DNA of 62,436 nucleotides, counting the filler, from Sanchytrium tribonematis (lineage: Eukaryota), in assembly GCA_018985235.1 (NCBI GenBank). It is 6 parts of 6 records of this genome, joined end to end, with 100 filler letters (N's around TTAATTAATTAA, not from the genome) between each part and the next. Parts side by side here need not be neighbours in the genome. Positions count along the whole stretch, not along the records: positions 49,882 to 56,112 come from JADGIG010000542.1; 5 more parts are not named here. One strand, written 5' to 3'. Position 1 is the stretch's first letter. Each line of letters opens with the position of its first letter. The notes under the pieces are model-generated. The model searched no databases. It had not been told where the DNA came from and saw only the letters and a program-made list of their open reading frames with translations. The position numbers and the translations under genes are program-made. Of the stretch, positions 4,901-61,229 are shown piece after piece.

Positions 4901-7900
4901 TTAAAAAACAAGTGTCGGATGGTAATGACAGAGTTATTGAGAGTATGGAGAAAGTGAAAAGTGCTCTTGCAACAATCAGTTGCTTTGGTGATATTGGAGG
5001 GCCAGAATATGTACTTGATAGTATCTTGGACGGCTTAAAGAAGGGACAGAAGGAGATTAATGAAGTTAATTCAGATTTAACACTTCTTGACAAAGAAAAT
5101 GTTTTGGGAGATATTCGACAACTCCAAGATGATCTGAAACAAAATGCGAAAGCCGCATTTCAAGAACTTTTGAAAATCAAAAACTTTTCTCAAGAAGGCA
5201 ATGATCAAGGGGTCGGAGGAAGCGCACAAGATATGACATCTTATTTAAGCCGAGTAACCAATGCAGGTAAGCAAGTTGCTGCTATTTTAGGACTTGAGAA
5301 ATGGAACGAAGATACCGATGAACAGCAAGCCCAGTTGATTTCAAATCTTGCTAAATCTTACCTGCCATTGATCGCTATTGTTGAAAAAGCTAGAAATGCT
5401 TTAGGTAAAAAGGGAGACAGGAAAGAAATGGAAGATGATATCGCTAAATTCCAAAATGCTTTGACCGCATTAATGGCATCTCTGCCTGAACAAAAAGAAT
5501 TAGAAAAAGTTATCAATCAGGTGTCTGAAGTTTTGTCTAGACCGGTAGCTAATAATTCGCAAGAGCCAGAAGAAGCTAAAAACAAATTGTTCCAAAGTTC
5601 TTCTCAAATGTCGAATGCTTATAATCAATTGGTCAACGCCCACAAACTTCCACATAATGAGTTGCTCAAAATTATGAATGATATGACGAAACATCATTCC
5701 GAAATTGTCTCATCCGCATTAGCCATAAGTAATCAGCTTGATAATGAGGAAGATCGCCAAAGAATTCGCGCCTTATTATCCGAAATATCGGAGTCCAGCT
5801 CCTCTGTATTAGGATTTTCAAAGAGAGCTTCATCTGTCGTTTTAGACGATGTACAGCTCAAAGATACGATGTTAGGAACCTCTCAAAAATTGGGAACCGC
5901 GATTCAAGAGTTACTTCAAATTGTTTCTCAAGTTGGAAACGAGGACGAACAAATGGCTAAAATCAATATTAAGAAAGCTGTTGAGAAGGGTCAAGATATA
6001 ATTAAAAATTGCAATGTTCCTCCAAAGATTATTGACTCATATGACAAAATTTCCGATGATGTCGCTGGTGCACTTGATAAGGTACTTGCTGCATTAGACA
6101 AGCTAAGAGGCGACTTAAATAAGAATACTTTGGAAGCAGTCAGTACCGAAGCTGAGAAGGCCACTATTGAATTTGCATCAGCTTTGGCCAAGGCCCTTTA
6201 TGTTGTTGCATTGAACGACTTTGATACGGTTCAAGGAACTCCTGGATTTGTAGACTGTGCAGTTCAAGAAGCTGGGTATGAAAGATTAAAAGAAAGAGTT
6301 GAACAACTTAAGAAGTCCAAAACGCCTCAAGAAGTTGCGCAAGTTACTGCTGACATTGCAAAAATAACAAACAGCGTAATGTTGCTTTGTAAAGAGCTAG
6401 CTGCAGATAAAACAGGTAAAGTAAGTCCAACAGATCAGCAGTATTTTATGCAATATGCCCAATACATTGGACAAAGTGTTCAGGGCTTTGTTGGTGCAGT
6501 AAAACTATTTAGCACCGCCATGAATGATGAAAATAGACAACAAACTATGGCTCATGCAAATGGAATTGCCGAGGGAATCAAGGGCATTGTACAGTATCTC
6601 AAAGAGCCTCAATTTAATGGTACTCCCACTCAATTTGGTTCAAAAGCCTTGGTCATGCAAAAACCTATTCAAGACTCTGCCAAGAAGTTTTTCAGAGCTT
6701 TGGATGGTAGTGGGAACGCCTTGACAATTTTAAGTCTTAACCCTCAAAACACGTCTATTTTGGGTCAAATTGCAACCAATGCTAAAGTAATGAATGATTC
6801 CAAAAACGGTATTCTCAAATCATTAGAAGAACAAAGTCCAGGGAAAAAGAAATTGGAACAGATTGCTGATAAGTTGCAAAACACTCTGATTGATTTGGAC
6901 GCAGCTTTATTAAAATGTGCAACAGAAGGTTTAACCAAGTCTCCTGACGCTCAGGTAAATCAAACAATGGATGCCGCAGACATGGTTGCGACCGCATTAA
7001 ACGATTTAGATCACTTGAATTTAGAACCTGCGTACATATCCAAACAGGCACTTCAACTCAACGATTTACACGATATGATTATGAAACAAATGCTCGCAGA
7101 AGCAAGTATTCGAGACAACAAGGCTACCCAATGTGATATTGTTGGTTTGCTAAAAGATTTAACTGAAGCATTTTTGGACTTGCAATTGGCTTTGAAAGAT
7201 ATGAATTCATCAGAAATTGCTGAGAAGAGAGAAAAAGTGTACGATAAATTAGATGACATAAAAGGGTATTGGGTTCAATCCGAATCTCTGGATAAACTTG
7301 TGGAAAGTGCTAAATCTCAAATCTCTGCAATTCATGGAAATATTTTAAAGACATATCCTACCTCATCTGGTGCAATTGTTCCATTGGCCGCATTTTTAAA
7401 TGACTGTAGAGAACTTATTTTAAGTATCGGGTCATTTGCTGGTGTTATCGGTAAAGAAAATCCTGATTTTGAAAGCAAGATTCCTGCTATACCCAGCAAG
7501 CTACAAAGCATGCAGCCTAGTCTTTGCATTGCATTAAAAGTTGCTGAAGTTTCTACTAAAAACGAGATCGACTCAAATTTGAAAGCACTTGTCTTGGGGC
7601 TTTGCACATATTTAGATATGATGAGAAATGCTTTTATGAGACCAGCTGATGGTAGTGCTAAATCTTCATTGAGTAGCGCTAGTAGAGATGTGTCAACAAG
7701 AGTAGGGGCATTGATAAACAGTGTCAAAAATGCCAACCCTGGGCTTTCTCAAACTGAGAATGCAGTTTCAAAGATTAATGATGACGTTATGGCTGGAATT
7801 GAAAGTACAATGGTATTCGCTGAAGCAGGCCAATTAGAACCTTCTTCTGGTGACAAACCATTCAAAGAATATCATGGAGATATTCAGGTTGGTGTTAAGA

Positions 7901-29537: not shown

Positions 29538-30760
29538 ATGTATCTCACTTTTATGAGTAATTCAATACGCTATTGCTTGATAATAAGTCAATTGGGAATA
29601 TTTACTGGTAGATGTATTCCACCTGTGGCTACAAATATCACTATTGGAATTGGATTTGTCAAAATTAGCAATGCTAATGTTTGCATGACAAATATAAACT
29701 CGGTACTTAATGGTACATTGTGCGACTTTAGCCAAAATCAGTGGGATGTAACTTTTATCTCCAATTCATATAAGATATTCCAATCTGGGTGCTGCCTAAC
29801 CACTCAACTTTTAATGAATTGCGTAGATTCAACTCAGTGTACTTGGATAAGCTCAAATTCTTTAGATTCCATTGCCCTCAAGAGTACACCACTAGATGTT
29901 AAATATACGGAGTTTTCTATTAGAGGAATGGCCTCTTTAAGTTATTCTGGTTACGCGTGGCCAGTTTATTTTCAAAATACATACATCTTGTTTGTATGCT
30001 TTTACACGACAACTTCGCTGTGCTCTTCTATTCCGAATTACCTTGCTCCCTATCCAGTTGCCATGACTCCGGGATCTTTCAATTCACAGTTAATTACAAT
30101 TTTTCAAACAGGTACAACATTTCAGATTGAAGATGTGAGAAGTGGCACCTGTGTTGTATCAAGTCCTGACTGCTCAGCGAAGTTTACTGACTTTACTCAA
30201 TATACACCTACAGGCACTGAAAATCTCGTGATGTTTGCGACTGGTGTGTCCGCTATTCCATATTTATGTCTGGGCTACAAACTTCATAATATGTCTATAA
30301 CAGTAACGAATTGCCTAAGTAAGAATATGAATACTGTGAGATCCAGTTTTGTAAGTAGTTCGAGTTATAACATGTATTTAGGAAACACAACTTACAAATT
30401 TGGATTAGACAGTAATGCTAAGCCCTATATTACTACGGCTGGTCTTATAAGTAGTCAATTTGGAATTAGAATTCCTAGTGGGCAAACCAAATTTTTTATT
30501 AAAGCTAGCACTGGATGTTTGAAGCTCTCCACCACTACTTTAATTTGGGGATTTACTTATACCTGTTCTAGCAGCTTAAACACGGCGACTTTAATATCAA
30601 TTTCATTTGTAATTTCTGAAATTTCCGCAAGTTTAATTAACGTTCCAGTTTCGATTCAAAATATCAATTGTTTGGGTCAATTGAATTTGTCAATTGTTAG
30701 CGGTGCTTGTAGCAATTCAAAATTATGGGAAATCATTCCATCAATGGGAGAAGATGTTAG
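29538..30760 (+). CDS. Cys/Ser/Thr-rich, probably extracellular protein, truncated by contig end
   Basis: >400 open codons; recurring xCL/GCL...W spacing loosely like beta-trefoil repeats; start uncertain. Confidence 0.5.
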
Positions 30761-36301: not shown

Positions 36302-37010
36302 TTATTTGGTTTTACTTTGCTCTTCGGCTTGCATTGCTTCAGTTTGGGACCTGGTGATGTAGTTCAAATCCAATGTGGCCTCATAGCCATATCTGCTCAA
36401 CGCATCAGCTGCTCCATTTTGATGACCTATTACGTATGCAATTGTCAGATCGTGTTGCTGAAGTTTACACACCCAGCTTGCCAATTTCCCTGTTTTCTGG
36501 CTGTCGTTGGGGTTTTGGACACTTTTTCTTGTGAAGGAGAAACCCATCCGAGCTAAATGCAAACCCTAAGAAATTGACTTTTATCATACCAAATTTGCAT
36601 TTCTTTGCACAAAGCGTTAGCCCGAATTCTTTCAATTTCTTGAGCACCTTTCCCAGGCTCTTCATCAGAGACTCGAGTGTGTGACCAAATATTAGGAAGG
36701 CGTCCAAGTAAACCAGAATTTCAGTTCCAATCATTTCTTTAAATATTTCATCCATTAGACGCTGAAATGATGCTGGTGCTGTTGACAATCCAAAGGGTAT
36801 ACCTATAAACTCAAACAGCCCAAAAGGTGTCACAAAAGCTGTCTTTTCTCTGTCCTTATCAGCCAAAGGTCTCTGCCAGTATCCAGATTTTAGATCCAGT
36901 GATATGAAGAATTTTGCTCCATCAAGGCTATTTATGAGGCTTTGGAGGTTTGAGATTGGTGGTTTGTAGTTAAAGCAAAACCGTACAGATCCATCATGCT
37001 TTGATAGCAT
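36302..37010 (-). mobile_element. Degenerate Ty3/gypsy pol fragment (RT + end of RNase H)
   Basis: DGSVRFC, LDLKSGYWQ, KTAFVTPFGLFEF, PFGL, YLDA (dead YxDD), then frameshifted GKLASW...NGAADALSR; internal deletions. Confidence 0.88.
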
Positions 37011-37210
37011 AACACGGAGTATTACTGTAAAATATGTCCTCCAGTAAAAATGTTATAAAGAAACCCCCAGGCCCTCTGCAGCCCGCAAACCTAGCAGAAA
37101 TGGTTGACCCNNNNNNNNNNNNNNNNNNNNNNNNNNNNNNNNNNNNNNNNNNNNTTAATTAATTAANNNNNNNNNNNNNNNNNNNNNNNNNNNNNNNNNN
37201 NNNNNNNNNN

Positions 37211-49781: not shown

Positions 49782-50858
49782 NNNNNNNNNNNNNNNNNNN
49801 NNNNNNNNNNNNNNNNNNNNNNNNNTTAATTAATTAANNNNNNNNNNNNNNNNNNNNNNNNNNNNNNNNNNNNNNNNNNNNAATGCAATATTTCGCCCAT
49901 TTATCTTAAAAATATAACAATTGTCAAAAAATTTAATTTTTTTCACACTTGTTACAGAATTATGAATGAACAAGTGCTGCTTATGGTGTTAATTTGAGTT
50001 TTGAAGATCCTATTGAGTATAATTATTGATATGTGGCAGATATTTATTGTTTTTAGACTCTTGTAACAGTAGATTGTGTGGCTCAAGTTCCAATAAATTG
50101 TTTAATTCTTGTTGATTCAGAACTCTTTTGTATCCACGATTCTCAATTTGTTAGTGAATGTGCATGTGTAGTTGGACTCTTCATCTAAAGATTCAGGGAT
50201 ATTATAATTTATTTCTGATGGTGGATCGAAAATTTGTGTAAATAAAGTTAAAGAAAGTGTATTTCGAGCCACTTAGTAGTGCTAATTGCTTGTCTTTTCA
50301 ATAGAACCATGTCATTTGGTTCAGACTTCAAAATCTTTGTGGGCATCGAATTATTTTCAAAGTCATTTTTACGTTTATGGTTTTGTATTTGACTGCCACC
50401 AAGCATCTGAATGATACGTATTTCCAATTTAATTTTTCTGAAGACGATATAATCTGAGTCGTTGAGATAAAATCGATTTGAATTTTCGAAAATTGAAATT
50501 TGGAAATTGATCTCTGATTATTTGAAAAAGATGCATTTTGTTATATGGACATGCAAACTCATAGTGTTGTAAGTCATTGTGGTTATTTAGAATGGATAAA
50601 TGGGCTGTGGTCCTGTTATGGAGCTCATGATATCTTGAGATGGACAGATTTAAAAATTGGCTGTTTATTGAATGAATCATAGAATAGGTATTGAGTTTAA
50701 AAGGAAATGATGCAGATCTTAGTAATAGTTGAGTATTAGGTAAAAGACATTGGCGGAATGTGTGGCAGAGTATTGGCAAATCTAGCGTATTTGGATATTT
50801 CAATGAAAAAGAGTTCGAATACATTTGAGTCACCATTTGGGTATCATGGTAAGCAGCA

Positions 50859-51260
50859 TTAGCGCATGAATGTGTTAAGATCTGCTTCTTCAACTCCCAC
50901 CAATGATTGGGCCAAATCCCTCGACACTCCGTATCTGACTAGAAAGTCAGATTCTAATTTATATTTATTTATTTCTCGGTTTACTCGTTCTAATTCCTCT
51001 TCATTTTTAGTTAATCTCCAGCTCATCTGAGATTTCAACATTCCCAGATCTTCATCGATCTTTCTAGCTCTTAAATCTCTTTCTCTCAACATCGTGACCT
51101 CATCTGTCATTCCTGCTTGTGTTATTGCTTGTTCTTCATACTCTGATTGAATTTTATTCAATTCTTCTTCTCTTTTCGAGCCTAAACCCGCTAAAACAGC
51201 CTTTATTTGCTCCTTTAAGTCATTCAACTCTTTCTGACGCGCTTCAAGACGGTTGATCAT
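50859..51260 (-). CDS. LTR-encoded coiled-coil ORF (probable Gag N-terminus when in the 5' LTR)
   Basis: 129 codons inside the LTR ending EADLN, the same residues that precede MVENQ at 56096. Confidence 0.65.
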   Translation of the reverse strand: MINRLEARQKELNDLKEQIKAVLAGLGSKREEELNKIQSEYEEQAITQAGMTDEVTMLRERDLRARKIDEDLGMLKSQMSWRLTKNEEELERVNREINKYKLESDFLVRYGVSRDLAQSLVGVEEADLNTFMR

Positions 51261-51406
51261 AATAACTATTTATTTACCAGTGTTCTTGGTCCCCGCGGAC
51301 CCTTTATATCCCATTTCTGAGGTCTGCTGACCTCCCATGTGCTCATTTGCACGTGATAACAACGTGCTGCTGTTGTGATGGACAATTTTCATGTCATTCC
51401 GCAACA
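50873..51406 (-). repeat. 3' LTR, 534 bp, TGTT...AACA
   Basis: Starts TGTTGCGG after purine run GGAGGGA; its last 16 nt (GAAGCAGATCTTAACA) equal 56111-56096, directly before the PBS. Left boundary inferred from PPT/TG only. Confidence 0.8.
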
Positions 51407-54400
51407 TCCCTCCAACATTCAATTTGTCTATCACTAGTCGCTTTACCATGCTAGGTGTTGTCCAAAATTCAATACTTTTATTATCAATCATTTGCAGTTT
51501 TATTTTGCCATTTTCCATTGCAACAATCGAATAAGGTCCACTGGCTGGACAATCAAGTTTACCACGTTTGATTCCATCAAAATATAGCACAGTGTCTCCA
51601 ATATTTACAATGTGGAGATGGCTGCCATTTGCATTGGCAGTTGCTTTAATTCTTCGTGCATATTTTAAAACTCGCAAAGTTTGAACTACCCGCACTCGGT
51701 CCTCAACAATACCATTAATGTACTCCAGCTCAACATCCGACACATATTTATCCTTTATGGAATCTGTATTGGTCACATTTATTAAATCCACAGGTGATAA
51801 TCGAGAAGAATCCATTGCTGAGTGATTTATGCAATATTCCACTGCATGTAATGTGTCCAGCCATGATGACATCCTCCAATCTCCAGTATAATTTGATGTG
51901 ACTCTAATCATATCCAATATTGTGCGATTTAGCCTCTCAACAGGATTTGACCTGTGGAGATATGGCGTTGTATAATGAATATTCACCAACTTGTGTGCTT
52001 TAGCTGCCATGTCATGAATAAATACTTCACAGGCTTTAAATACGCCGGCATTATCTGCAATGATAGTCATTGGGATAGGAAATGTGCTGAAACACTTCAC
52101 GAGCGCATTTTTCATATTTTCTGCACTTTCATCAATTAACTCTGCAATTCGGACATATGAACTAAAAGTATCTGCTACAACTAGCACTTTACCAATCAAA
52201 TCGCCATGTTCTGATTCTTCTGGAGTCAGATGCAAGACATCAATGGCAACAATTTCAAATGGGAATCTGGCAGGAGTTCTTGTCATTACAAATTTGTTCC
52301 TCTTTGGGTGCTTATAGGCAATGCACCATTCACAAGACATACAATACTCACGGATATCTAGTGCCATTTTTGGCCAATAAAAATTTGCCAATTCTGCCAT
52401 CATTTTCGAGGATCCTTGGTGTCCTGATATGGCATCTTTATGCGTTCTGTGCAGCAACATACTTCTAAAGAATTCTGGTACAAAAATACGATTTTCAAAC
52501 ATGATCACATCCATATTGATTAATTTCAAATTTGTGATTGCCTGATCGTCATTTGCAATGTTCAGGTCATTCTGAAGGAAATTCACACACTCGAAGTCTT
52601 TCAGCTGCCATCTGAGTAGTTCACCTGGCTGTATTTCATTTAGTACACTCTCTCCCACTCGAGTATCTGGTAAATTTTGGACACTTATTTCATTATCTAC
52701 TTGATTGAGTGATTTGTCCGCATTCTCTTTAAGATCTACATCCATTACATCTGCGTTATCATTCTGTTTTGCCATATTTCTGGTAATTACCATTACTCTT
52801 GGATTCTTAGATTTTGCTTGCTCAACAGCTTCTTTGATCAGTGGATTACGTGACAAGAAATCAGCATCGAAATTCAAACTACCTTTCACATACACTATGG
52901 ATAGATTGAATGATGATAGGAAAATGCTCCATCGGTACAACTTGCCATTTAACAAATTTCTACTTGTTAAGAGCCAGGCTAATGATCCATGATCTGTGAA
53001 GACTGTGACCTTGTGACCGTAGATATATCTTTGGAATTTCTTGAGTGCCGACACAATGGAGATACACTCCAACTCTGTTATGTGCCAATTGGCTTCATTT
53101 GCGTGTAATGATCTGGACCAATAATAAAGAGGCCTACCATCCTGTAATAGCACAGCACCCAAACCTCTCATACTAGAGGCATCACATCTAATCTGGAAAT
53201 CTTTTGTTGGATCAGGATAATGCAACATGGTGTTATTTGCCAGTAGCTTTAGAAATGATTTGTAGGCGATTATTTGCTCTTCCTCCCAACACCATGGCTC
53301 ATTTTTCCGCAACAGTTTTAAGAGTGGCTGTGCTATAATGCTGTAGTCGGGTACATAGCGAGCATTTCATTGCATCATCCCATTAAAACTCATTAGTTGC
53401 TTTTTATTAGTTGGTTCAGCAGCATTAATAATTGCGTCTATTTTGCGTGGATCGGCTTGAATTCCATTTTGACCAACAACATGGCCTAACAAATCTATTT
53501 TATTAAATCCTAAACTGCATTTTTCTGGTTTCAATTTCAAATTTGCTTTTCTGAGTCTTTCGAAGATTTCACGAGTATTTGCCAAGAACTCATCGAATGT
53601 AGCTGCTCCCATGGATATGTCATCTTGAAATGCCTGTGTTGATGTTATGCCAGCCAGCAAATCATTCATAATTCTTTGAAACCACGCAGGTGCATTTACA
53701 ATACCGAATGGGACACGAGTAAACTGGTAGATCTTTCCCCCGATATAGAATGCTGTATATTTTCGTGATTCGCGGTCCAGTAATATTTGCCAATACCCAA
53801 AGGCAAGGTCAATGTGCAGGAAGTAAACCATTCCAATAAATCTCAAAATCTGCTCCTCTGCATCTGCCTGTGGATAAACATCGAGAATCATAATTTCATT
53901 TAATGGTCGCAGATCAACACAGAATCTTTTTTCATCCGTGTCTTTTTTTGCAACTAATACGGTTTCATGAACAAAATCTGATCCATCAGGACCACACTCT
54001 TCAACAACTTCCAGCTTCAGCATCTTCTCCAAATTTTTATCTAAGATTTGTAATTCTTTGACACTTCGTGGTCGTCTTTTGACTTTGTAAGGTTTATATT
54101 CTTTCAATCGAATTTTAATTGGAGGTAACTTTGCTCCAATGTCTCCTTGAAATATGTCAACAAACTCACGAACCAGAGCCTTTAGAGCCAGCAGATGATT
54201 CTTAGGAAGCCTAGGATTGATTTTGAGTTTAGCACACACTTCTTCAAATGTCAATTTAGGGTGCTGTTCGTCAAAGTGAATAATATCTACCTCTCCTGGT
54301 AATGGTTCATCTTTCATTTGAGTGTATGTTTCTTTAATATATGCCGTCCCCTCTACAACTTGCTCGTCTATGTCCACATTGACATCCGATTCTGGCACAA

Positions 54401-56096
54401 TTTCATCATCACCCATGAGATTGGCAAGATTTCCGAAATCTTCCGGCTGCACGGGATCTGACGAGTCCATGGTAATAGTGGTGTCGTTGACTCGTTTACC
54501 ATGTTCAATAGATACAAAACACACATTCTTCTTCTGGATTGGAGATTGGGACAAACTGATCACTTTAGATCCCAATTCTACTACACCATTCTTTCCATTA
54601 ATAACAATGTTCAGTGGGATTAATCCATTGATCCCCAATAATAATGGACTCGTGCAATCACGAATGATCTCGAATGGCAAAATTGCCATAGAATCAACGC
54701 TCAACTCACAAAAGAGATTTACCCGTCCCAAAACCTTTTCAGTACTTCCATTCACACTGGTAATGCCTGTGAATGGTGATTTGAGCACTAAATGACCACG
54801 GGTATGTTTCAAGAGCCATGCTACAGTCACCAAATTGACTTGCGATCCCGGATCAATAAAAAGCTTTGTCTCTTGTTTTTCAACAAAAACACCAACTTCA
54901 ATACTTGATAATTGTTGATGAGAATGGCTAGAAACTACTTTTACTCCAATAACACAGTTACTTAGCCCAAATAGCTCTCCAACCGTCGCATTTGACTCGC
55001 GAGTGCTAGTTTGTCTACCACTACTTCCTTGTTTTTTTAAATTTGGGCAAGAGGCTACTCTATGACCACTGAGTTTGCAGTTAAAACAGAGATCGTTATC
55101 TCTGCAGAGTGAAATTTCTTCACGAGTCAATTTATTTGCAATGGCGTTAATCTGTCCAGGTGATGCTGTATTATGGTTATTACTGTTATAACCAACAGAC
55201 TTTGACTGATCATTAGAGGGATTTGGCTTTGAATATCTCTCATAATATGATCTTCCCAACATCATTTTCGTAGATTTTTCAACTGAAATCAATAGACTCT
55301 CCGCGCCTTCAATACTTTCTGGATAATTGACTGCTGTCTTATTTTGAATTGCCTGTCTTAGTTTTGGATTGCAACAATGCAAGATGCGATAAATCAAGTT
55401 GTTTTCTGACATCGCGAATTTGGCTTGCTGTAATGATGACTCAGAATCAGTTGCTAAAGGGTGATCCACAACAAATTGTAGCTTCTTTCTGATCAACTTC
55501 AATTTCTGGCAATATTCACGTGCGTCTAAAGCCCCTTGTTGCAATGTTGTTAAAGTTGCAGTCGTGTTGATCAATTTTTGTCTAGATCTGTATGAGACTA
55601 TCAAAGCGTGAACCAGCTTATCATAACTAGAATATCTCTCACTTGCATAGATTTGGGAAATCTTGTCTGGCAGCAAACTATTTACCAAATTTGACCAATC
55701 CCCAGGATGCACATTGTATCTTCTAGCCATTATCTGGAAATCGCTTAAGAACACGTCAATATCCTTATGAGGACTATCCTCACTTGGATCAAAGTAAACT
55801 TTTTGTTTTATTCTATCAAACACATCTTTAACATTGTTTTGCCGGACTAACAACTCAAATACACTGCTCGTACTCACATTCTGTTCTGATTTAATGGAAT
55901 CAATATCCATCATATCGTCGTATTTATTGATTTTACCAAAACCCATCTGTTCTCTAATTTTTAATTTTTCTAATTTTTCCAATTTTGATGCTTCCAGCAA
56001 TTTTCTTTCTAATTCATTGATTTGGTTCCTAATTCTATCAACTTTTCCAATGACTTTAGGCACTTGAACTTGGTGAGAGCCCTGATTCTCCACCAT
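51270..56096 (-). CDS. Gag-Pol polyprotein interrupted by TGA at 53367-53369
   Basis: CFNCKLSGHRVASC; LFIDPGS protease; IDLAFGYWQ, PFG, FQDD RT; CDAS, ELEC, TDH, DADFLSR RNase H; HHCC, AID/ADN/VERLN integrase, GPY motif. Confidence 0.9.
56078..56095 (-). other. Primer-binding site TGGTGGAGAATCAGGGCT (tRNA-Ala-like)
   Basis: Immediately follows the LTR-terminal CA; TGGTGGAGAAT is complementary to the eukaryotic tRNA-Ala 3' end ...AUUCUCCACCA. Confidence 0.8.
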
Positions 56097-56212
56097 GTTA
56101 AGATCTGCTTCGNNNNNNNNNNNNNNNNNNNNNNNNNNNNNNNNNNNNNNNNNNNNTTAATTAATTAANNNNNNNNNNNNNNNNNNNNNNNNNNNNNNNN
56201 NNNNNNNNNNNN

Positions 56213-58215
56213 GTTTCAGTGGTTTCAGTTGATTCTGTAGTTTTTGCCGTAGTTGTTTTTATATTTGATGATTCAGTTGATACACTAATAGGCTCTGTAA
56301 TTGATTGTGTGTCGTAAACAATAGAAGAATCACTAGTTTGTCTGCTAGTAATTGCACTTATTAATTCACTTGAAATTGAGGATTGTTTTGTAGTTTGACT
56401 TACACTCGTTACTGCATTTGTAGATGTACTAGTAGCATAAATAAACTGTGGCGTACTCTTACATAAAGAATATCCAATCAAATTAGTTGTATTCAACTCA
56501 TTAAATGATAAATCACAAGTCGTCAATCCACTTGAATTCAATATCTGCACAGAATCAAAGTAATTATGCTGTATTTCCACATAATAAGGTGCATTTAATG
56601 ATATAGTACCATTTAATTGATTATCATTGACTTTTAAATATGTTAATTGGGATATATTGCCAATTAATGATCCATTTAAATTTGCAGCATTTAATCGTAA
56701 ATATTTCATTGAAGATGGAACAGTGGGAATTGTACCACTTAATGCATTTAAATCTGCATGATATTCAATGAGTTGATCATTAAATGGAGGGATTTGACCC
56801 GTAAATAAATTGGTACCCAAATTACAAAATGACATGGAATCTGGTAAAGTGGGTAATTTACCACTTAATTTGTTTAATGGGACATCAAATACAGTCATTG
56901 GAGATTGTAATTGAACTGTGCCACTAATGAAATTATTAAATAGATCAATAAATACAAATGATTTGGGGAAAACAGGGAGTCCACCCGTCAATTTATTCCC
57001 ATTTGCCATTAAATACAACATATTGGAGGGTAATCTAGGAATAATCCCATTTAAATTATTATTACTTGCTTCAAAATACATGACAGAATTTGGTAAAGTT
57101 GGAAATTTACCAAATAAATGAGATCTGTGTTCTGTAATCACCATATGTCTTAATTTAGATGGCAATACCGTGGAATCAATAGTGCCATGTAATGATGGGA
57201 CATTTGATCGTGGCCAATAAATGGAAACCACATTAATATTTGAGCAAAGAATGCCTGGGAAATCACAACAATTCGTTGGAATTGTTAAATTTAGTGATTT
57301 ACCGAGTAAAAACATGTTATTACAATCATTTACAATTTCAGAGGGTGCTGTGACTGGACATTGGGATGGGAGATAGCCACTGACGGAATTTGTGATATTG
57401 CATGTGAAATTACTAGATCCCACATTTATCAGCATAATACCAGTATCTTGAATAAATAACTCATTTGGACTTTTAATAGATAATTGACCAGTGAATAAAT
57501 TATTATTCAGTCTCAAATTGATTACATTTGATAAATCAGGGATATTCCCACCTAAAGCATTATTTTGTAAATAAAGCGTGGTCAAATTACTTGGAACAGA
57601 AGCCAATACACCTAATAATAAATTATTATTCAATTTGAGTGACTTGAGGGTATTTGGGAGAGATGGAATACCACTTCCAATATTAAATTGATTACTCGAT
57701 AAATAATTATACGAGAGGTCTAATTCAATCAATTGGGATGGTAAATTAGGGATTAGATTGACAAATGAATTATTGGATGCATAGAAATACTTGATATTGC
57801 TTGGGAAGGGTGGTAAACTACTGATAAATTGATTATGAGAAATATCTATTGATGAGATATTGGGGAAGTTGAAGATTCTACCAGTCAATTGGTTGCAAGA
57901 AACATTGAATAGACTCAATTGGGATGGCCATGTTGGATTGATGGGCATGGATCCATTTAAATTCATAAATGAGAAATCAATGGAGATGACTTGTTGCTGC
58001 CCGCTGACTACAAAACAAGATATGCGCGTGGATGAACAACAATTATTGGATAATAAAGTGTACTCGTCTGGGTTAACTAGGTTCATATTCATTTGACGGG
58101 CTAGATTGATGACGGATGGACAGTCTTGGGATATCTGAGTAATTTCGGAGTATATTGGACTTATTAAGATCATCAGCAGTACCAAGGATAAGTAGTGATG
58201 AGTGATTTCAATCAT
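56213..58215 (-). CDS. Secreted/surface LRR protein with Ser/Thr stalk, 3' truncated
   Basis: Signal peptide; two DC...CC...C N-caps; LxxLxLxxNxLxGxIP repeats; S/T-rich tail. Confidence 0.88.
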
Positions 58216-58414
58216 AAAATCTGAAATGTTTCAAATAGCTAAGCATCTTTTATGATGATAGCTCTACGTCGCAGTACGTCAGAAGCAAGTCAGATACTCA
58301 AAATTGATTTTTGAGATCTTATGGAGATTCAAGTAGCTGAAGATGGATACTGGCTCATGAATTTGTCTCTCGAAATCACTTTTTTTTAAAAAATAGTATA
58401 ATCTTTAATTTATT

Positions 58415-61054
58415 TTAAGCATCCTTACTACTGCCTAAATCAAAGTTTAAATCTCTCTTTGTCTTCTTCTTTCGTTCAAATTTCATAAACGATGGTAATA
58501 TCACAATGATCATTGAATTAATCACCAATTTCACAATAGAAAGCAAACTCAAATTTACAAATTCATTCAATTTATAACTCGGTTTAAATGTTAAATTAGC
58601 ATATTTCGTTTGCAATCCTCTTGTTGAGTTTACAGATAAATAGGTGCTTCCTACATCAAGAGAAGTATTTGCTGTAGTTTTGAAAAACAACCTTCTGGTC
58701 AAAATGATTTCTAAATGAATAAAAAATACCTGGTATTTCAATTCCGTATTCAAATATTCAGTTGTTTCAGTGGTAAATGCCACTGACGAGACCTTATTTT
58801 CATTCGCGAATGGCTGAGTCGTGGCAGAAGATGGAGAATTTGTTAATACTAATGATGAGCTAGTAATTGTTGCTTCTGCTGTAGATGTACTTGAAATGAT
58901 CGTTGAGAATGGTGTAGAAGTACTTGCAATAGTCGCAATCTCAGAACTCATCACATTTAGTTTCAAAAAAGAATCTGAATTATTTACACAATTCCCCAAA
59001 TTAGTATAATTTAAAATGGGATTCTTGGTAATATCACAATATTGAAGCGTATTTGGTGCTGCAATATAGATATTAGAAATGGAATTGTTGTAAAGAAACA
59101 AATATTTCGTATAAGTCGATTGTAACATTGCAATTTCACCACTAATTTGATTAGAATTGACTTGATTTGGCATTCCTATAGCCAACAACCACATATTTAG
59201 TGGAAGTGTTGGTAATTCCGCAATAATTTTATTTGATTGCAAGTATAAATTGCTTAAACTAGCTGGAAATGGACCCGTTAGATTTGTAAATAAGTTGAAT
59301 GACAAATCTAAACCACTTACACCATTAGGAATTACTGGTATGGTACCACTTAATAAATTATTGCGAAAAACACCCGAATAAATTTGCTGAAAATCAGTGA
59401 TTGGTCCACTTAAAAGATTATTTTGTACTTCGAAATATAAAAAGGAAGAACTTGGAATGTTCACAGATCCACTAAATTGATTGTCATTTGCAGAATACTG
59501 AAAAGCATTAGGGGCTTGTGGCAATGTACCATTAAAATTGTTGTTATTTAATAAAAATTTTGTTGCAATTGGGAAGTTTTGAGGGACTGGACCACTAAAT
59601 TGATTAAAAGAGACTACGATTCCCTTTAATTGAGAAAAATCTGGTAACGTACCATTAATCTTGTTCATGGAAATATCTAAATATTTTAAATATTGAGGCA
59701 CTTGGCCAATTAATTTCACAAAATTGCAGCTGCTTAGTGCGACAATGGTGATTCCTGATGGCAATAAATCCATATCTAAAATGACATCAGGTCCATTTGT
59801 GCTGTAACCATACCAATCAATTTGATCTATAATCCCCTGCTTACAAATAATATCAATCATCGAGCAACAATCTTGTAACAAAGATTCGTAATAATCTGGT
59901 TTAGTGACATCCAATTTCATTGATTTTGCGAATATTGCAAGTTGTTCGCAGCCATATCCAGTCTTTAGAGGTAAATTTAATTGGCAATTGACTGGAAAAT
60001 TGGAAGAATTGGAAATTGGATTATTTTGAATCACGCAAGGATTCTCAGTACCACCAGCTGAACAACTACCGTCAATTAAATTGGCACTTGTAATATCATT
60101 ATTAGTGATATTCAAGTTGCAATTATTCTTCAAAATGCTTATTTCTCCATAAAAATGATTATTAGAAATATCCAAATTTTGAACTGTTTCTGCAGATATC
60201 CAATGAGACAAGTTACCCGTCAAATTGTTGTTTTTGACTGATAAGTAGTTTAATTTGATGACATTTGGTTCAAAAATACCACTTAATTGATTAATTCCCA
60301 GTACTAAAGTTGCCAAATTAACAAGATTTGGAATATTTCCAGTCAACAAGTTATTATGCGTTGCAAAGTAGGTCAAAGAGGTAGAAAATCCTGTAAGATT
60401 TCCACTTAATAGATTATCATGTAGAATAATGGTGTCCGCATTTGGTGGAAGCACACCAATTTCCCCCGAGAATTGATTGTGATTCAATCTGACATGACTC
60501 AAACTTGCTGGAAGTTTGTTGATCAAAGTCCCATTCAACTGATTCATTTCAGCATAAATGCGACTAGTAGAATACAAGCGTGGTAAATTACCCACAAATT
60601 TGTTTCTTGAAACCCCCAACACGCTCCCATGAAAATCAAAATCCAAATACCCTTCTAAATCGTTATTGTCAATAAACAGTGTATCCATTGTAGATGGAAT
60701 TGTCGCATTGAAGGTGCCACTCAGTTTGTTATTGGACATGTCAACATTCAAAGATGGTAATTTAAAATTCAAATTTCCCGTCAAAGCATTGATATGTAAA
60801 TATAACTCGGGTAATTCTGATGGATACTTTAAATCCGTCACATCCCCATCCAATTCTAATCCACTCCAATCGATATGATCTACATATCCATTAAAACACG
60901 ACATTCTCGTCAATTGATAAGGTAAACAGCAATCCAATTGGATATATGCGTACATCTTTGGTTGCTTACGATCTAAACCTAGTTTTTGTGCCATTTTGAT
61001 GACTATGTCGCAGTCTGGAATAACTCCAAAAACAAACAAATAGAGTAAAATCAT
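58415..61054 (-). CDS. LRR receptor-like protein (signal, two capped LRR blocks, S/T stalk, TM, short basic tail)
   Basis: MILLYLFVFG signal; repeated C...DCC...C..G.(V/I)D.IDW.G caps; NxLSG repeats; TM LSLLSIVKLVINSMIIVILPSF then KFERKKK. Confidence 0.88.
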   Translation of the reverse strand: MILLYLFVFGVIPDCDIVIKMAQKLGLDRKQPKMYAYIQLDCCLPYQLTRMSCFNGYVDHIDWSGLELDGDVTDLKYPSELPELYLHINALTGNLNFKLPSLNVDMSNNKLSGTFNATIPSTMDTLFIDNNDLEGYLDFDFHGSVLGVSRNKFVGNLPRLYSTSRIYAEMNQLNGTLINKLPASLSHVRLNHNQFSGEIGVLPPNADTIILHDNLLSGNLTGFSTSLTYFATHNNLLTGNIPNLVNLATLVLGINQLSGIFEPNVIKLNYLSVKNNNLTGNLSHWISAETVQNLDISNNHFYGEISILKNNCNLNITNNDITSANLIDGSCSAGGTENPCVIQNNPISNSSNFPVNCQLNLPLKTGYGCEQLAIFAKSMKLDVTKPDYYESLLQDCCSMIDIICKQGIIDQIDWYGYSTNGPDVILDMDLLPSGITIVALSSCNFVKLIGQVPQYLKYLDISMNKINGTLPDFSQLKGIVVSFNQFSGPVPQNFPIATKFLLNNNNFNGTLPQAPNAFQYSANDNQFSGSVNIPSSSFLYFEVQNNLLSGPITDFQQIYSGVFRNNLLSGTIPVIPNGVSGLDLSFNLFTNLTGPFPASLSNLYLQSNKIIAELPTLPLNMWLLAIGMPNQVNSNQISGEIAMLQSTYTKYLFLYNNSISNIYIAAPNTLQYCDITKNPILNYTNLGNCVNNSDSFLKLNVMSSEIATIASTSTPFSTIISSTSTAEATITSSSLVLTNSPSSATTQPFANENKVSSVAFTTETTEYLNTELKYQVFFIHLEIILTRRLFFKTTANTSLDVGSTYLSVNSTRGLQTKYANLTFKPSYKLNEFVNLSLLSIVKLVINSMIIVILPSFMKFERKKKTKRDLNFDLGSSKDA
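58711..58729 (-). other. Candidate 19-nt intron (gtattttttattcatttag) inside an open reading frame
   Basis: CAG|GTA donor, exact length, T12, A14, TTTAG acceptor; splicing would give YQ-KSF-stop. Confidence 0.55.
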
Positions 61055-61229
61055 GTTTGAGATCAAGCCACGTTTTGAGATGCGACACAAGTGGCAAGCT
61101 AACTCAACTCTAATTTTATTAAAAAGGAGAGCATTTCTTACTCCACTTCATTTGTTGAACAAGTCCCTTAACACGAATCAATGGGTAAATTAAAAACCAG
61201 ACATGATTGAAAAATAGATTGTCCTTTAT

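What the first reader, a model, noticed from the sequence alone, without database searches (positions are those of the whole stretch)
50859..56112. Ty3/gypsy element whose Gag frame starts inside the LTR and reads through the PBS
Seen: the 3' LTR holds a 129-codon coiled-coil ORF (ATG 51260) running to the LTR end (GAA GCA GAT CTT AAC A). At the 5' end the same 16 nt are followed by the PBS, giving AAC A|TG GTG GAG AAT in frame with Gag-Pol. The integrase frame also runs through the PPT and ~136 nt into the 3' LTR, stopping 9 nt before that ATG, so almost the whole LTR is coding. Known: short gag starts inside the LTR occur (e.g. yeast Ty1), but most Ty3/gypsy gag ORFs begin after the PBS. Inference: a 129-aa LTR-borne domain means 3' and solo LTRs could express a Gag fragment or fuse it to flanking host sequence, possibly acting as a copy-number control factor.
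Basis: partly seen in the sequence, partly recalled or inferred. Interest (0 to 1): 0.72.

Follow-up and report, generated by a model that had tools for sequence, protein, structure and literature searches.

The report
Retrotransposon Gag head encoded inside LTR
A broken gypsy-type jumping gene carries a 129-codon protein-coding frame inside its terminal repeat, in register with its coat gene, which likely forms the front end of the coat protein; this is a long version of a layout known from yeast Ty1 and seen in other gypsy elements.

Summary
A Ty3/gypsy element on the minus strand has a 534-nt 3' LTR (51406-50873). Its last 387 nt are a 129-codon ORF, open in 0 of 20,000 shuffles, with coding-type base periodicity and a predicted all-helical fold, in the same frame as Gag-Pol across the PBS. 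Because reverse transcription copies U5 from the RNA just upstream of the PBS, this ORF is most likely Gag's coiled-coil N-terminus, made from a short-leader transcript (about 75%). The 44-codon integrase run-on into U3 is within chance (7% of shuffles) and is known from plant CRM elements. The layout is not unique: four unrelated gypsy loci fetched here also open Gag-Pol before the PBS (7, 21, 90 and about 230 codons). Nothing supports a copy-number-control role, and the one diverged LTR-like copy seen is frameshifted. Verdict: new variant of a known kind, moderate interest.

The parts
50873..51406 (-). 3' LTR, 534 nt, TGTTGCG...CTTAACA
   Evidence: Termini fit the published TGTTRNR...YNYAACA consensus (PMC3601003 passage). 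Right end fixed by the 16-nt repeat and by an empty-site contig that leaves the window at 50872. Left end inferred from the PPT and the inverted terminus.
51407..51413 (-). Polypurine tract GGAGGGA
   Evidence: Directly abuts the LTR's TG
51303..51308 (-). TATAAA, likely main promoter (LTR position 99)
   Evidence: A second family's contigs match the LTR only from 51392 to 51300 and part just after this box. Function inferred.
51269..51274 (-). AATAAA, likely poly(A) signal, containing the integrase stop TAA (51272-51270)
   Evidence: 11 of 22 host ORFs have A[A/T]TAAA on or within 30 nt after the stop. Function inferred.
50874..51260 (-). 129-codon LTR ORF, likely the Gag N-terminal coiled-coil; in this 3' copy it runs 4 codons into the flank and stops at 50861-50859 (133 aa)
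   Evidence: Shuffle and codon tests. Single-sequence AlphaFold2 model has helices 2-47, 51-109 and 114-121, mean pLDDT 82.6, pTM 0.40. No homologue found.
50958..50963 (-). Second TATAAA, possible alternative promoter for a short Gag starting at the junction ATG
   Evidence: no ATG in the LTR after 51004. Untested.
51273..51404 (-). 44-codon integrase run-on inside U3
   Evidence: Open frame, but also open in 1,364 of 20,000 shuffles; no Pfam domain
51273..53366 (-). Pol downstream of the break: RNase H (about 53213-52908), integrase zinc finger (about 52481-52308), DDE core, GPY motif, no chromodomain
   Evidence: Pfam RT_RNaseH E=1e-30, Integrase_H2C2 E=6e-13, DDE_3 weak; GPY motif read from the translation
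53367..53369 (-). In-frame TGA breaking Gag-Pol between RT and RNase H
   Evidence: TGA ends 5 of 24 long frames in the window. The relative P0001 is open here.
53370..56096 (-). Gag-PR-RT, 909 codons from the junction ATG: helical segment, capsid-like region, CCHC knuckle (about 55088-55041), protease (about 54896-54606), RT (about 53951-53478)
   Evidence: Pfam RVT_1 E=6e-23; Retrotrans_gag, Asp_protease and zf-CCHC below their cut-offs. Closest solved RT is Ty3, E=1e-26.
56078..56095 (-). Primer binding site, likely tRNA-Ala type, read as codons of Gag
   Evidence: TGG directly after the LTR's CA; fits a tRNA 3'-end rule. The Ala assignment rests on recalled identity elements (A73, U70). 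No tRNA gene in the window.
56096..56111 (-). Visible 16 nt of the 5' LTR end
56113..56212 (.). Assembly linker (N44 + 12 nt + N44) that hides the rest of the 5' LTR
   Evidence: The same linker occurs five times, separating contigs of about 6.2 kb

Best explanation
This is a single-frame Ty3/gypsy retrotransposon, broken by one stop codon, whose LTR carries a 129-codon frame in register with Gag-Pol that likely encodes the helical, coiled-coil-like front of Gag. Transcription likely starts about 25-40 nt after the TATAAA at 51308, so U3 would be about 125 nt, R a few dozen nt and U5 about 380 nt. The first AUG (51260) would then lie within about 20 nt of the cap, and ribosomes would read U5, the PBS and gag-pol as one polyprotein of about 1,740 codons. 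At the 3' end the RNA would be cut just after the AATAAA that holds the integrase stop, so the 3' copy of the ORF would not be in the genomic RNA; it is there because reverse transcription copies U5 to both ends. The integrase tail in U3 is likely a neutral run-on. Shown: frames, motifs, coding signature, domain order, the break. Inferred: start site, poly(A) site, identity of the hidden 5' LTR, translation.
For: Register across the PBS. Coding signature in U5 only. Established mechanism: minus-strand strong-stop DNA copies R-U5 from the RNA just 5' of the PBS, so the 3' U5 reports what preceded the PBS in the parent. Motif order PPT, TG, TATAAA, AATAAA, ATG, CA with consensus termini (PMC3601003). 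The first ATG after the TATA box is 51260, with A at -3, the commonest host base there (10 of 22 ORFs). The helical, E/K/R/Q-rich character continues past the junction (38% in the LTR ORF, 43% in Gag 15-60). The run's LTR contig (50843-51341) has no other letters, compatible with identical LTRs. The same layout occurs in L063, L057, L066 and L003.
Against: No contig bridges the PBS and the LTR by 31 nt, and no 5' LTR-flank junction was seen. AATAAA occurs four times and TATAAA twice in this AT-rich LTR, so their roles are not fixed. The LTR end plus PBS itself makes an ATG in strong context (A at -3, G at +4), which could start Gag without the LTR ORF. No homologue exists to show conservation, and P0001 begins at our Gag residue 145. 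The diverged LTR-like contig is offset by 5 nt (a frameshift), and its visible edges give about 4 silent and 10 replacement changes, which is not a selection signal (hand reading).
Confidence: 0.74

Rival explanations
1. Gag starts at the ATG formed by the LTR end and the PBS, from a transcript driven by the second TATAAA (50963). The LTR ORF would then lie in U3, as an accessory frame reached by reinitiation after the integrase stop, or as a recent relic.
For: No ATG lies between 51004 and the LTR end; the junction ATG has A at -3 and G at +4; the stop-to-ATG gap is only 9 nt.
Against: The ORF has no stop inside the LTR, so such an RNA would end without one; no AATAAA follows the second TATA; in-frame register with Gag would be a 1-in-3 coincidence; the coding signature runs to the LTR end.
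Confidence: 0.14
2. Besides serving as the Gag head, the ORF is expressed from 3' and solo LTRs as a free coiled-coil of about 133 aa that poisons particle assembly and limits copy number.
For: Promoter and ATG are present in every LTR copy, and here the frame closes 4 codons into the flank. Ty1 has a Gag-derived restriction factor (PMC4551931 abstract).
Against: The ORF's presence in 3' LTRs follows from reverse transcription alone. The fragment lacks capsid and nucleocapsid parts. The one diverged copy is frameshifted. The stop depends on whatever flank follows.
Confidence: 0.07
3. The 129-codon frame is a separate third ORF before a much shorter LTR, or the 5' LTR differs, so the in-frame junction is an accident of a 16-nt match.
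For: Only 16 nt are seen twice and the 17th mismatches; the run's long internal contig does not break at 51406.
Against: PPT plus consensus TGTT...AACA termini at 51406 and 50873; a second family joins this stretch at 51392 behind its own purine tract; the ORF has no stop before the LTR end; neighbouring low-depth contigs also meet with short overlaps of 12 and 19 nt, so a dropout at the PBS is expected.
Confidence: 0.05

Closest known systems
Ty1 of Saccharomyces cerevisiae (Ty1/copia)
   Same: GAG's first AUG is handled on a fragment holding U5 and the start of GAG (PMC9283973 passages); that the AUG lies inside the LTR and the PBS is translated is recalled.
   Different: Ty1 puts only about a dozen codons in the LTR (recalled) and is copia-type; here 129 codons, about 72% of the LTR, in a gypsy-type element. 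Ty1's p22 comes from an internal start about 800 bp downstream, not from the LTR.
Plant CRM group A chromoviruses (also Beetle7, Bingo1-4 and 7)
   Same: The polyprotein frame extends through the PPT into the 3' LTR (PMC3059260 and PMC3605345, passages).
   Different: There the LTR-coded part is a conserved CR motif and the PBS is Met-type; here the tail has no Pfam domain, is open within chance, and no chromodomain was found.
Unnamed gypsy loci L063, L057, L066, L003 (public metagenome and IMG/VR contigs)
   Same: Gag or Gag-Pol frame open through a PBS-like site with an in-frame ATG 7, 21, 90 and about 230 codons upstream; L003's upstream part is rich in Q, E and M.
   Different: L057 and L003 group apart from the window in the RT-RNase H tree (L063 and L066 were not in it). 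The LTR is seen at both ends only in L063; it is inferred in L003 and L057 and unanchored in L066.
P0001, a Sanchytrium tribonematis element in EukProt
   Same: Closest relative found: 34% over Gag-PR-RT, 50% over RNase H, sister in the tree with support 1.0.
   Different: The predicted protein starts at our Gag residue 145 and lacks integrase, so it says nothing about the LTR.
Ty3 (Metaviridae type element)
   Same: Best solved-structure match for RT, E=1e-26; same PR-RT-RH-IN order.
   Different: Ty3 has two frames and starts gag after the PBS (recalled).

Membership tests
Ty3/gypsy (Metaviridae) | Domain order Gag-PR-RT-RNase H-integrase | tested here: met
   protease and gag hits are below Pfam cut-offs, RT, RNase H and the integrase zinc finger above
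Ty3/gypsy (Metaviridae) | RT closest to Ty3-type RTs | tested here: met
   Top PDB hits are Ty3 RT and Ty3 Gag-Pol; homologues are gypsy polyproteins
Ty3/gypsy (Metaviridae) | LTR with TG...CA inverted termini, preceded by a PPT | tested here: met
   consensus from PMC3601003
Ty3/gypsy (Metaviridae) | Two full direct-repeat LTRs | tested here: inconclusive
   Only 16 nt of the 5' LTR are assembled; run contigs do not bridge the junction
Ty3/gypsy (Metaviridae) | PBS complementary to a host tRNA | tested here: inconclusive
   Passes a tRNA 3'-end rule; no host tRNA available; Ala type recalled
Ty3/gypsy (Metaviridae) | Target-site duplication | not testable with these tools
   The 5' flank is hidden by the assembly linker; only the empty site is seen
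Autonomous active element | Uninterrupted Gag-Pol | tested here: not met
   In-frame TGA at 53369-53367; the protease motif also departs from D-[ST]-G
CRM group A chromovirus | CR motif or chromodomain encoded in the 3' LTR, Met-type PBS | tested here: not met
   No chromodomain hit; tail open within chance; PBS does not begin like the recalled Met type
Ty1-type copy-number restriction factor (p22) | Truncated Gag from an internal subgenomic RNA, keeping the RNA-binding region | tested here: not met
   The LTR ORF is N-terminal, with no capsid or zinc-knuckle match
Ty1-type copy-number restriction factor (p22) | Expressed and inhibits transposition in trans | not testable with these tools
   Needs RNA data and a bench assay

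The most novel reading that the evidence does not exclude
The LTR is a two-product switch: one promoter gives long Gag with the coiled-coil head, a second gives headless Gag from the junction ATG, and every 3' or solo LTR can make the free head, which co-assembles with Gag and caps copy number or seeds host fusion genes. The genomic RNA would be about 99% coding, and the one-LTR unit (5,223 nt = 1,741 codons) is a single frame with stop and start 9 nt apart.
Probability: 0.07. Interest if true: 0.68.

Novelty: new variant of a known kind. Interest (0 to 1): 0.37.

Why it matters
If Gag routinely starts deep inside the LTR in some gypsy lineages, annotation that begins at the PBS truncates Gag, LTR-pair dating that assumes neutral LTR evolution is biased, and solo LTRs scatter promoter-plus-ORF cassettes through the host. 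The element also extends gypsy sampling to a poorly covered lineage whose closest named relative comes from an early-diverging fungus. For this single broken copy without RNA data the gain is modest.

Tried and rejected
No whole genome is held, so copies and solo LTRs could not be counted. One DNA run was listed; no RNA holder listed. It is contigs only and may be the window's source, so depths (LTR 20, internal 10 and 5-6, flank 130-210) were not used as copy numbers. Gag residues 1-480 found no relative among proteins of 1,601-4,570 aa (weak test). The LTR ORF search gave 2 hits: itself, and a bacterial RTX-repeat protein rejected as a repeat artefact. Atlas hits were generic helical proteins with low recognition. 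Foldseek gave nothing at E<=0.001. The Gag model was too poor to use (pLDDT 39). No close relatives were found in viral or metagenome contigs. My first reading of the diverged copy as showing silent-site bias was withdrawn after counting both edges. U5 RNA folds no better than shuffles (z 0.37). TGA recoding was rejected because TGA ends 5 of 24 long frames in the window. An automatic PPT/LTR finder on comparators was too noisy. PBS-like hits in L054, L077 and L088 were judged chance, and L058's frame was not verified as Gag. No complex prediction was obtained (no verdict). Literature: ten searches returned no paper describing a long Gag head inside a gypsy LTR; phrase matching is narrow and older subscription papers (Ylt1, Woot, Ulysses originals) were not seen.
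Full report
Setting. The window is one 30.8-kb contig plus five contigs of about 6.2 kb joined by identical N-linkers. The element lies on the minus strand of contig 49882-56112 and runs into the linker. The host is a gene-dense eukaryote of about 35% GC, whose long frames end in TAA, TGA or TAG (16, 5 and 3 of 24). The closest related element is from Sanchytrium tribonematis, which suggests an early-diverging fungus; this is an inference. No whole genome is held.

Anatomy. From the 5' end: 16 nt of LTR, a PBS starting TGG with no spacer, and one frame with Gag, CCHC knuckle, protease, RT, RNase H and integrase (gag, protease and knuckle hits are below Pfam cut-offs). Then come a PPT at 51413-51407 and a 534-nt LTR, 51406-50873, whose ends fit the published TGTTRNR...YNYAACA consensus (PMC3601003, passages). 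RT matches Ty3 best among solved structures. An empty-site contig leaves the window exactly at 50872, which fixes the LTR's right end. The frame is broken by TGA at 53369-53367, where P0001 is open, so this copy cannot make full Pol unless the stop is read through.

The LTR ORF is real coding sequence. It was open in 0 of 20,000 shuffles, while the other two sense frames hold 19 and 14 stops. Its G1-G2 bias was reached in 0 of 20,000 shuffles, and it fits gag-pol codon usage only in this frame. A single-sequence model is three helices with mean pLDDT 82.6 but pTM 0.40. No relative was found: 2 hits among 1.84 billion proteins, itself and a repeat artefact, and nothing by fold. The integrase tail in U3 does not pass the same test (open in 1,364 of 20,000 shuffles).

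Why it is probably Gag's head. The 16-nt anchor puts the ORF in the Gag-Pol frame. By the established mechanism of reverse transcription, U5 of both LTRs is copied from the RNA just upstream of the PBS, so the 3' copy reports the parent's 5' arrangement even though the 5' LTR is unassembled. TATAAA (51308), AATAAA (51274) and ATG (51260) follow in order, and 51260 is the first ATG after that TATA box. The integrase stop sits inside the AATAAA, a pattern seen on or near the stop in 11 of 22 host ORFs. A second family's contigs share only 51392-51300 and part just after the TATA box, as a shared U3 module would. Start and poly(A) sites remain inferred.

What the run does and does not show. One DNA run holds the stretch, as contigs only, and may be the source of the assembly. 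Its LTR contig has no other letters, and the PBS contig runs 6 unseen letters past 56111 without matching base 56112. No contig bridges PBS and LTR, but two neighbouring low-depth contigs also meet with overlaps of only 12 and 19 nt, so a dropout is plausible. A diverged LTR-like contig (3,883 nt) matches 51100-51171 with 9 differences in 72. By hand reading of its two 30-letter loose ends it is offset by 5 nt on one side and shows about 4 silent and 10 replacement changes. These edges are biased toward divergence, so this is inconclusive on selection, but the copy is frameshifted, which counts against a conserved free product.

How unusual it is. I fetched 114 related loci; 104 had the RT motif and 23 of those a PBS-rule hit. 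Seven of the 23 had an in-frame ATG upstream and at least 300 open codons downstream. Four are Gag or Gag-Pol frames by Pfam: L063 (7 codons, LTR seen at both ends), L057 (21), L066 (90, LTR not anchored) and L003 (about 230, LTR inferred from a PPT at 6640). L077 and L088 were judged chance and L058 was not verified. The rule missed true-looking sites such as L002 and L038, whose Ala-type PBS is not in a long frame, so this is not a base rate. In a FastTree tree of 44 RT-RNase H sequences (L038 and P0023 dropped for short matches; L063 and L066 not included) the window pairs with P0001 at support 1.0 and lies apart from L003 and L057, which suggests repeated origins; deep nodes are poorly supported.

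Literature. Integrase entering the 3' LTR is described for CRM group A and some Beta chromoviruses (PMC3059260 and PMC3605345, passages). Ty1's first GAG AUG is mutated on a fragment with U5, and its restriction factor comes from an internal RNA (PMC9283973, passages; PMC4551931, abstract and outline). Passages of PMC7175516, PMC3286476, PMC3248453 and PMC5014426 gave nothing on the point. No supplements were read. Ten searches found no description of a long Gag head in a gypsy LTR, but the search is by exact phrase and misses older papers. Earlier AI notes of this scan report the same layout in other genomes, one with 187 codons; they are unchecked leads, and my own comparators point the same way.

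Verdict. The best reading is a gypsy element with a short U3 and R and a long protein-coding U5 that supplies Gag's helical head (0.74). Rivals are a junction-ATG start (0.14), an added solo-LTR restriction role (0.07) and a misjudged LTR (0.05). Novelty: new variant of a known kind; interest 0.37.

Noticed in passing
window 51392-51300: Three contigs of run X1 (875, 45 and 2,345 nt) share only this 93-nt part of U3; one has its own purine tract just upstream and another diverges just after the TATA box. This suggests a second element family sharing or donating the promoter; the window's first 15 LTR bases themselves run TG...CA.
   Followed up: partly
window 50873-56095: The one-LTR unit is 5,223 nt, a multiple of three, and the integrase stop and Gag ATG are in the same frame 9 nt apart; a 1-in-3 coincidence is possible.
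   Followed up: partly
window 55863-55966: A diverged Gag contig (314 nt, 14 differences in 104) exists in run X1; of 6 listed changes 3 are silent third-position and 3 are replacements.
   Followed up: partly
window 49882-50872: The insertion site has no long ORF, and run contigs differ from it by about 3% with small insertions at high depth; probably a decayed multicopy repeat. No Pfam match.
   Followed up: partly
window 36465-37052 (minus): A second gypsy-like RT remnant (RVT_1 E=9e-26) at the end of another short contig.
   Followed up: no
window 56218-58227, 58415-61147, 29538-30760: Proteins that look like secreted leucine-rich-repeat proteins, apparently an expanded family; only a weak LRR_4 hit for the first.
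   Followed up: no
L003 1-495 and 9652-9984: Gypsy element with a 23-nt tRNA-like PBS about 230 codons inside a 2,123-aa Gag-Pol frame, and a putative LTR of about 3.7 kb.
   Followed up: partly
L002 951-8108: A single 2,386-aa frame fusing Gag-Pol to a baculovirus-F-type envelope domain, with an Ala-type PBS.
   Followed up: no
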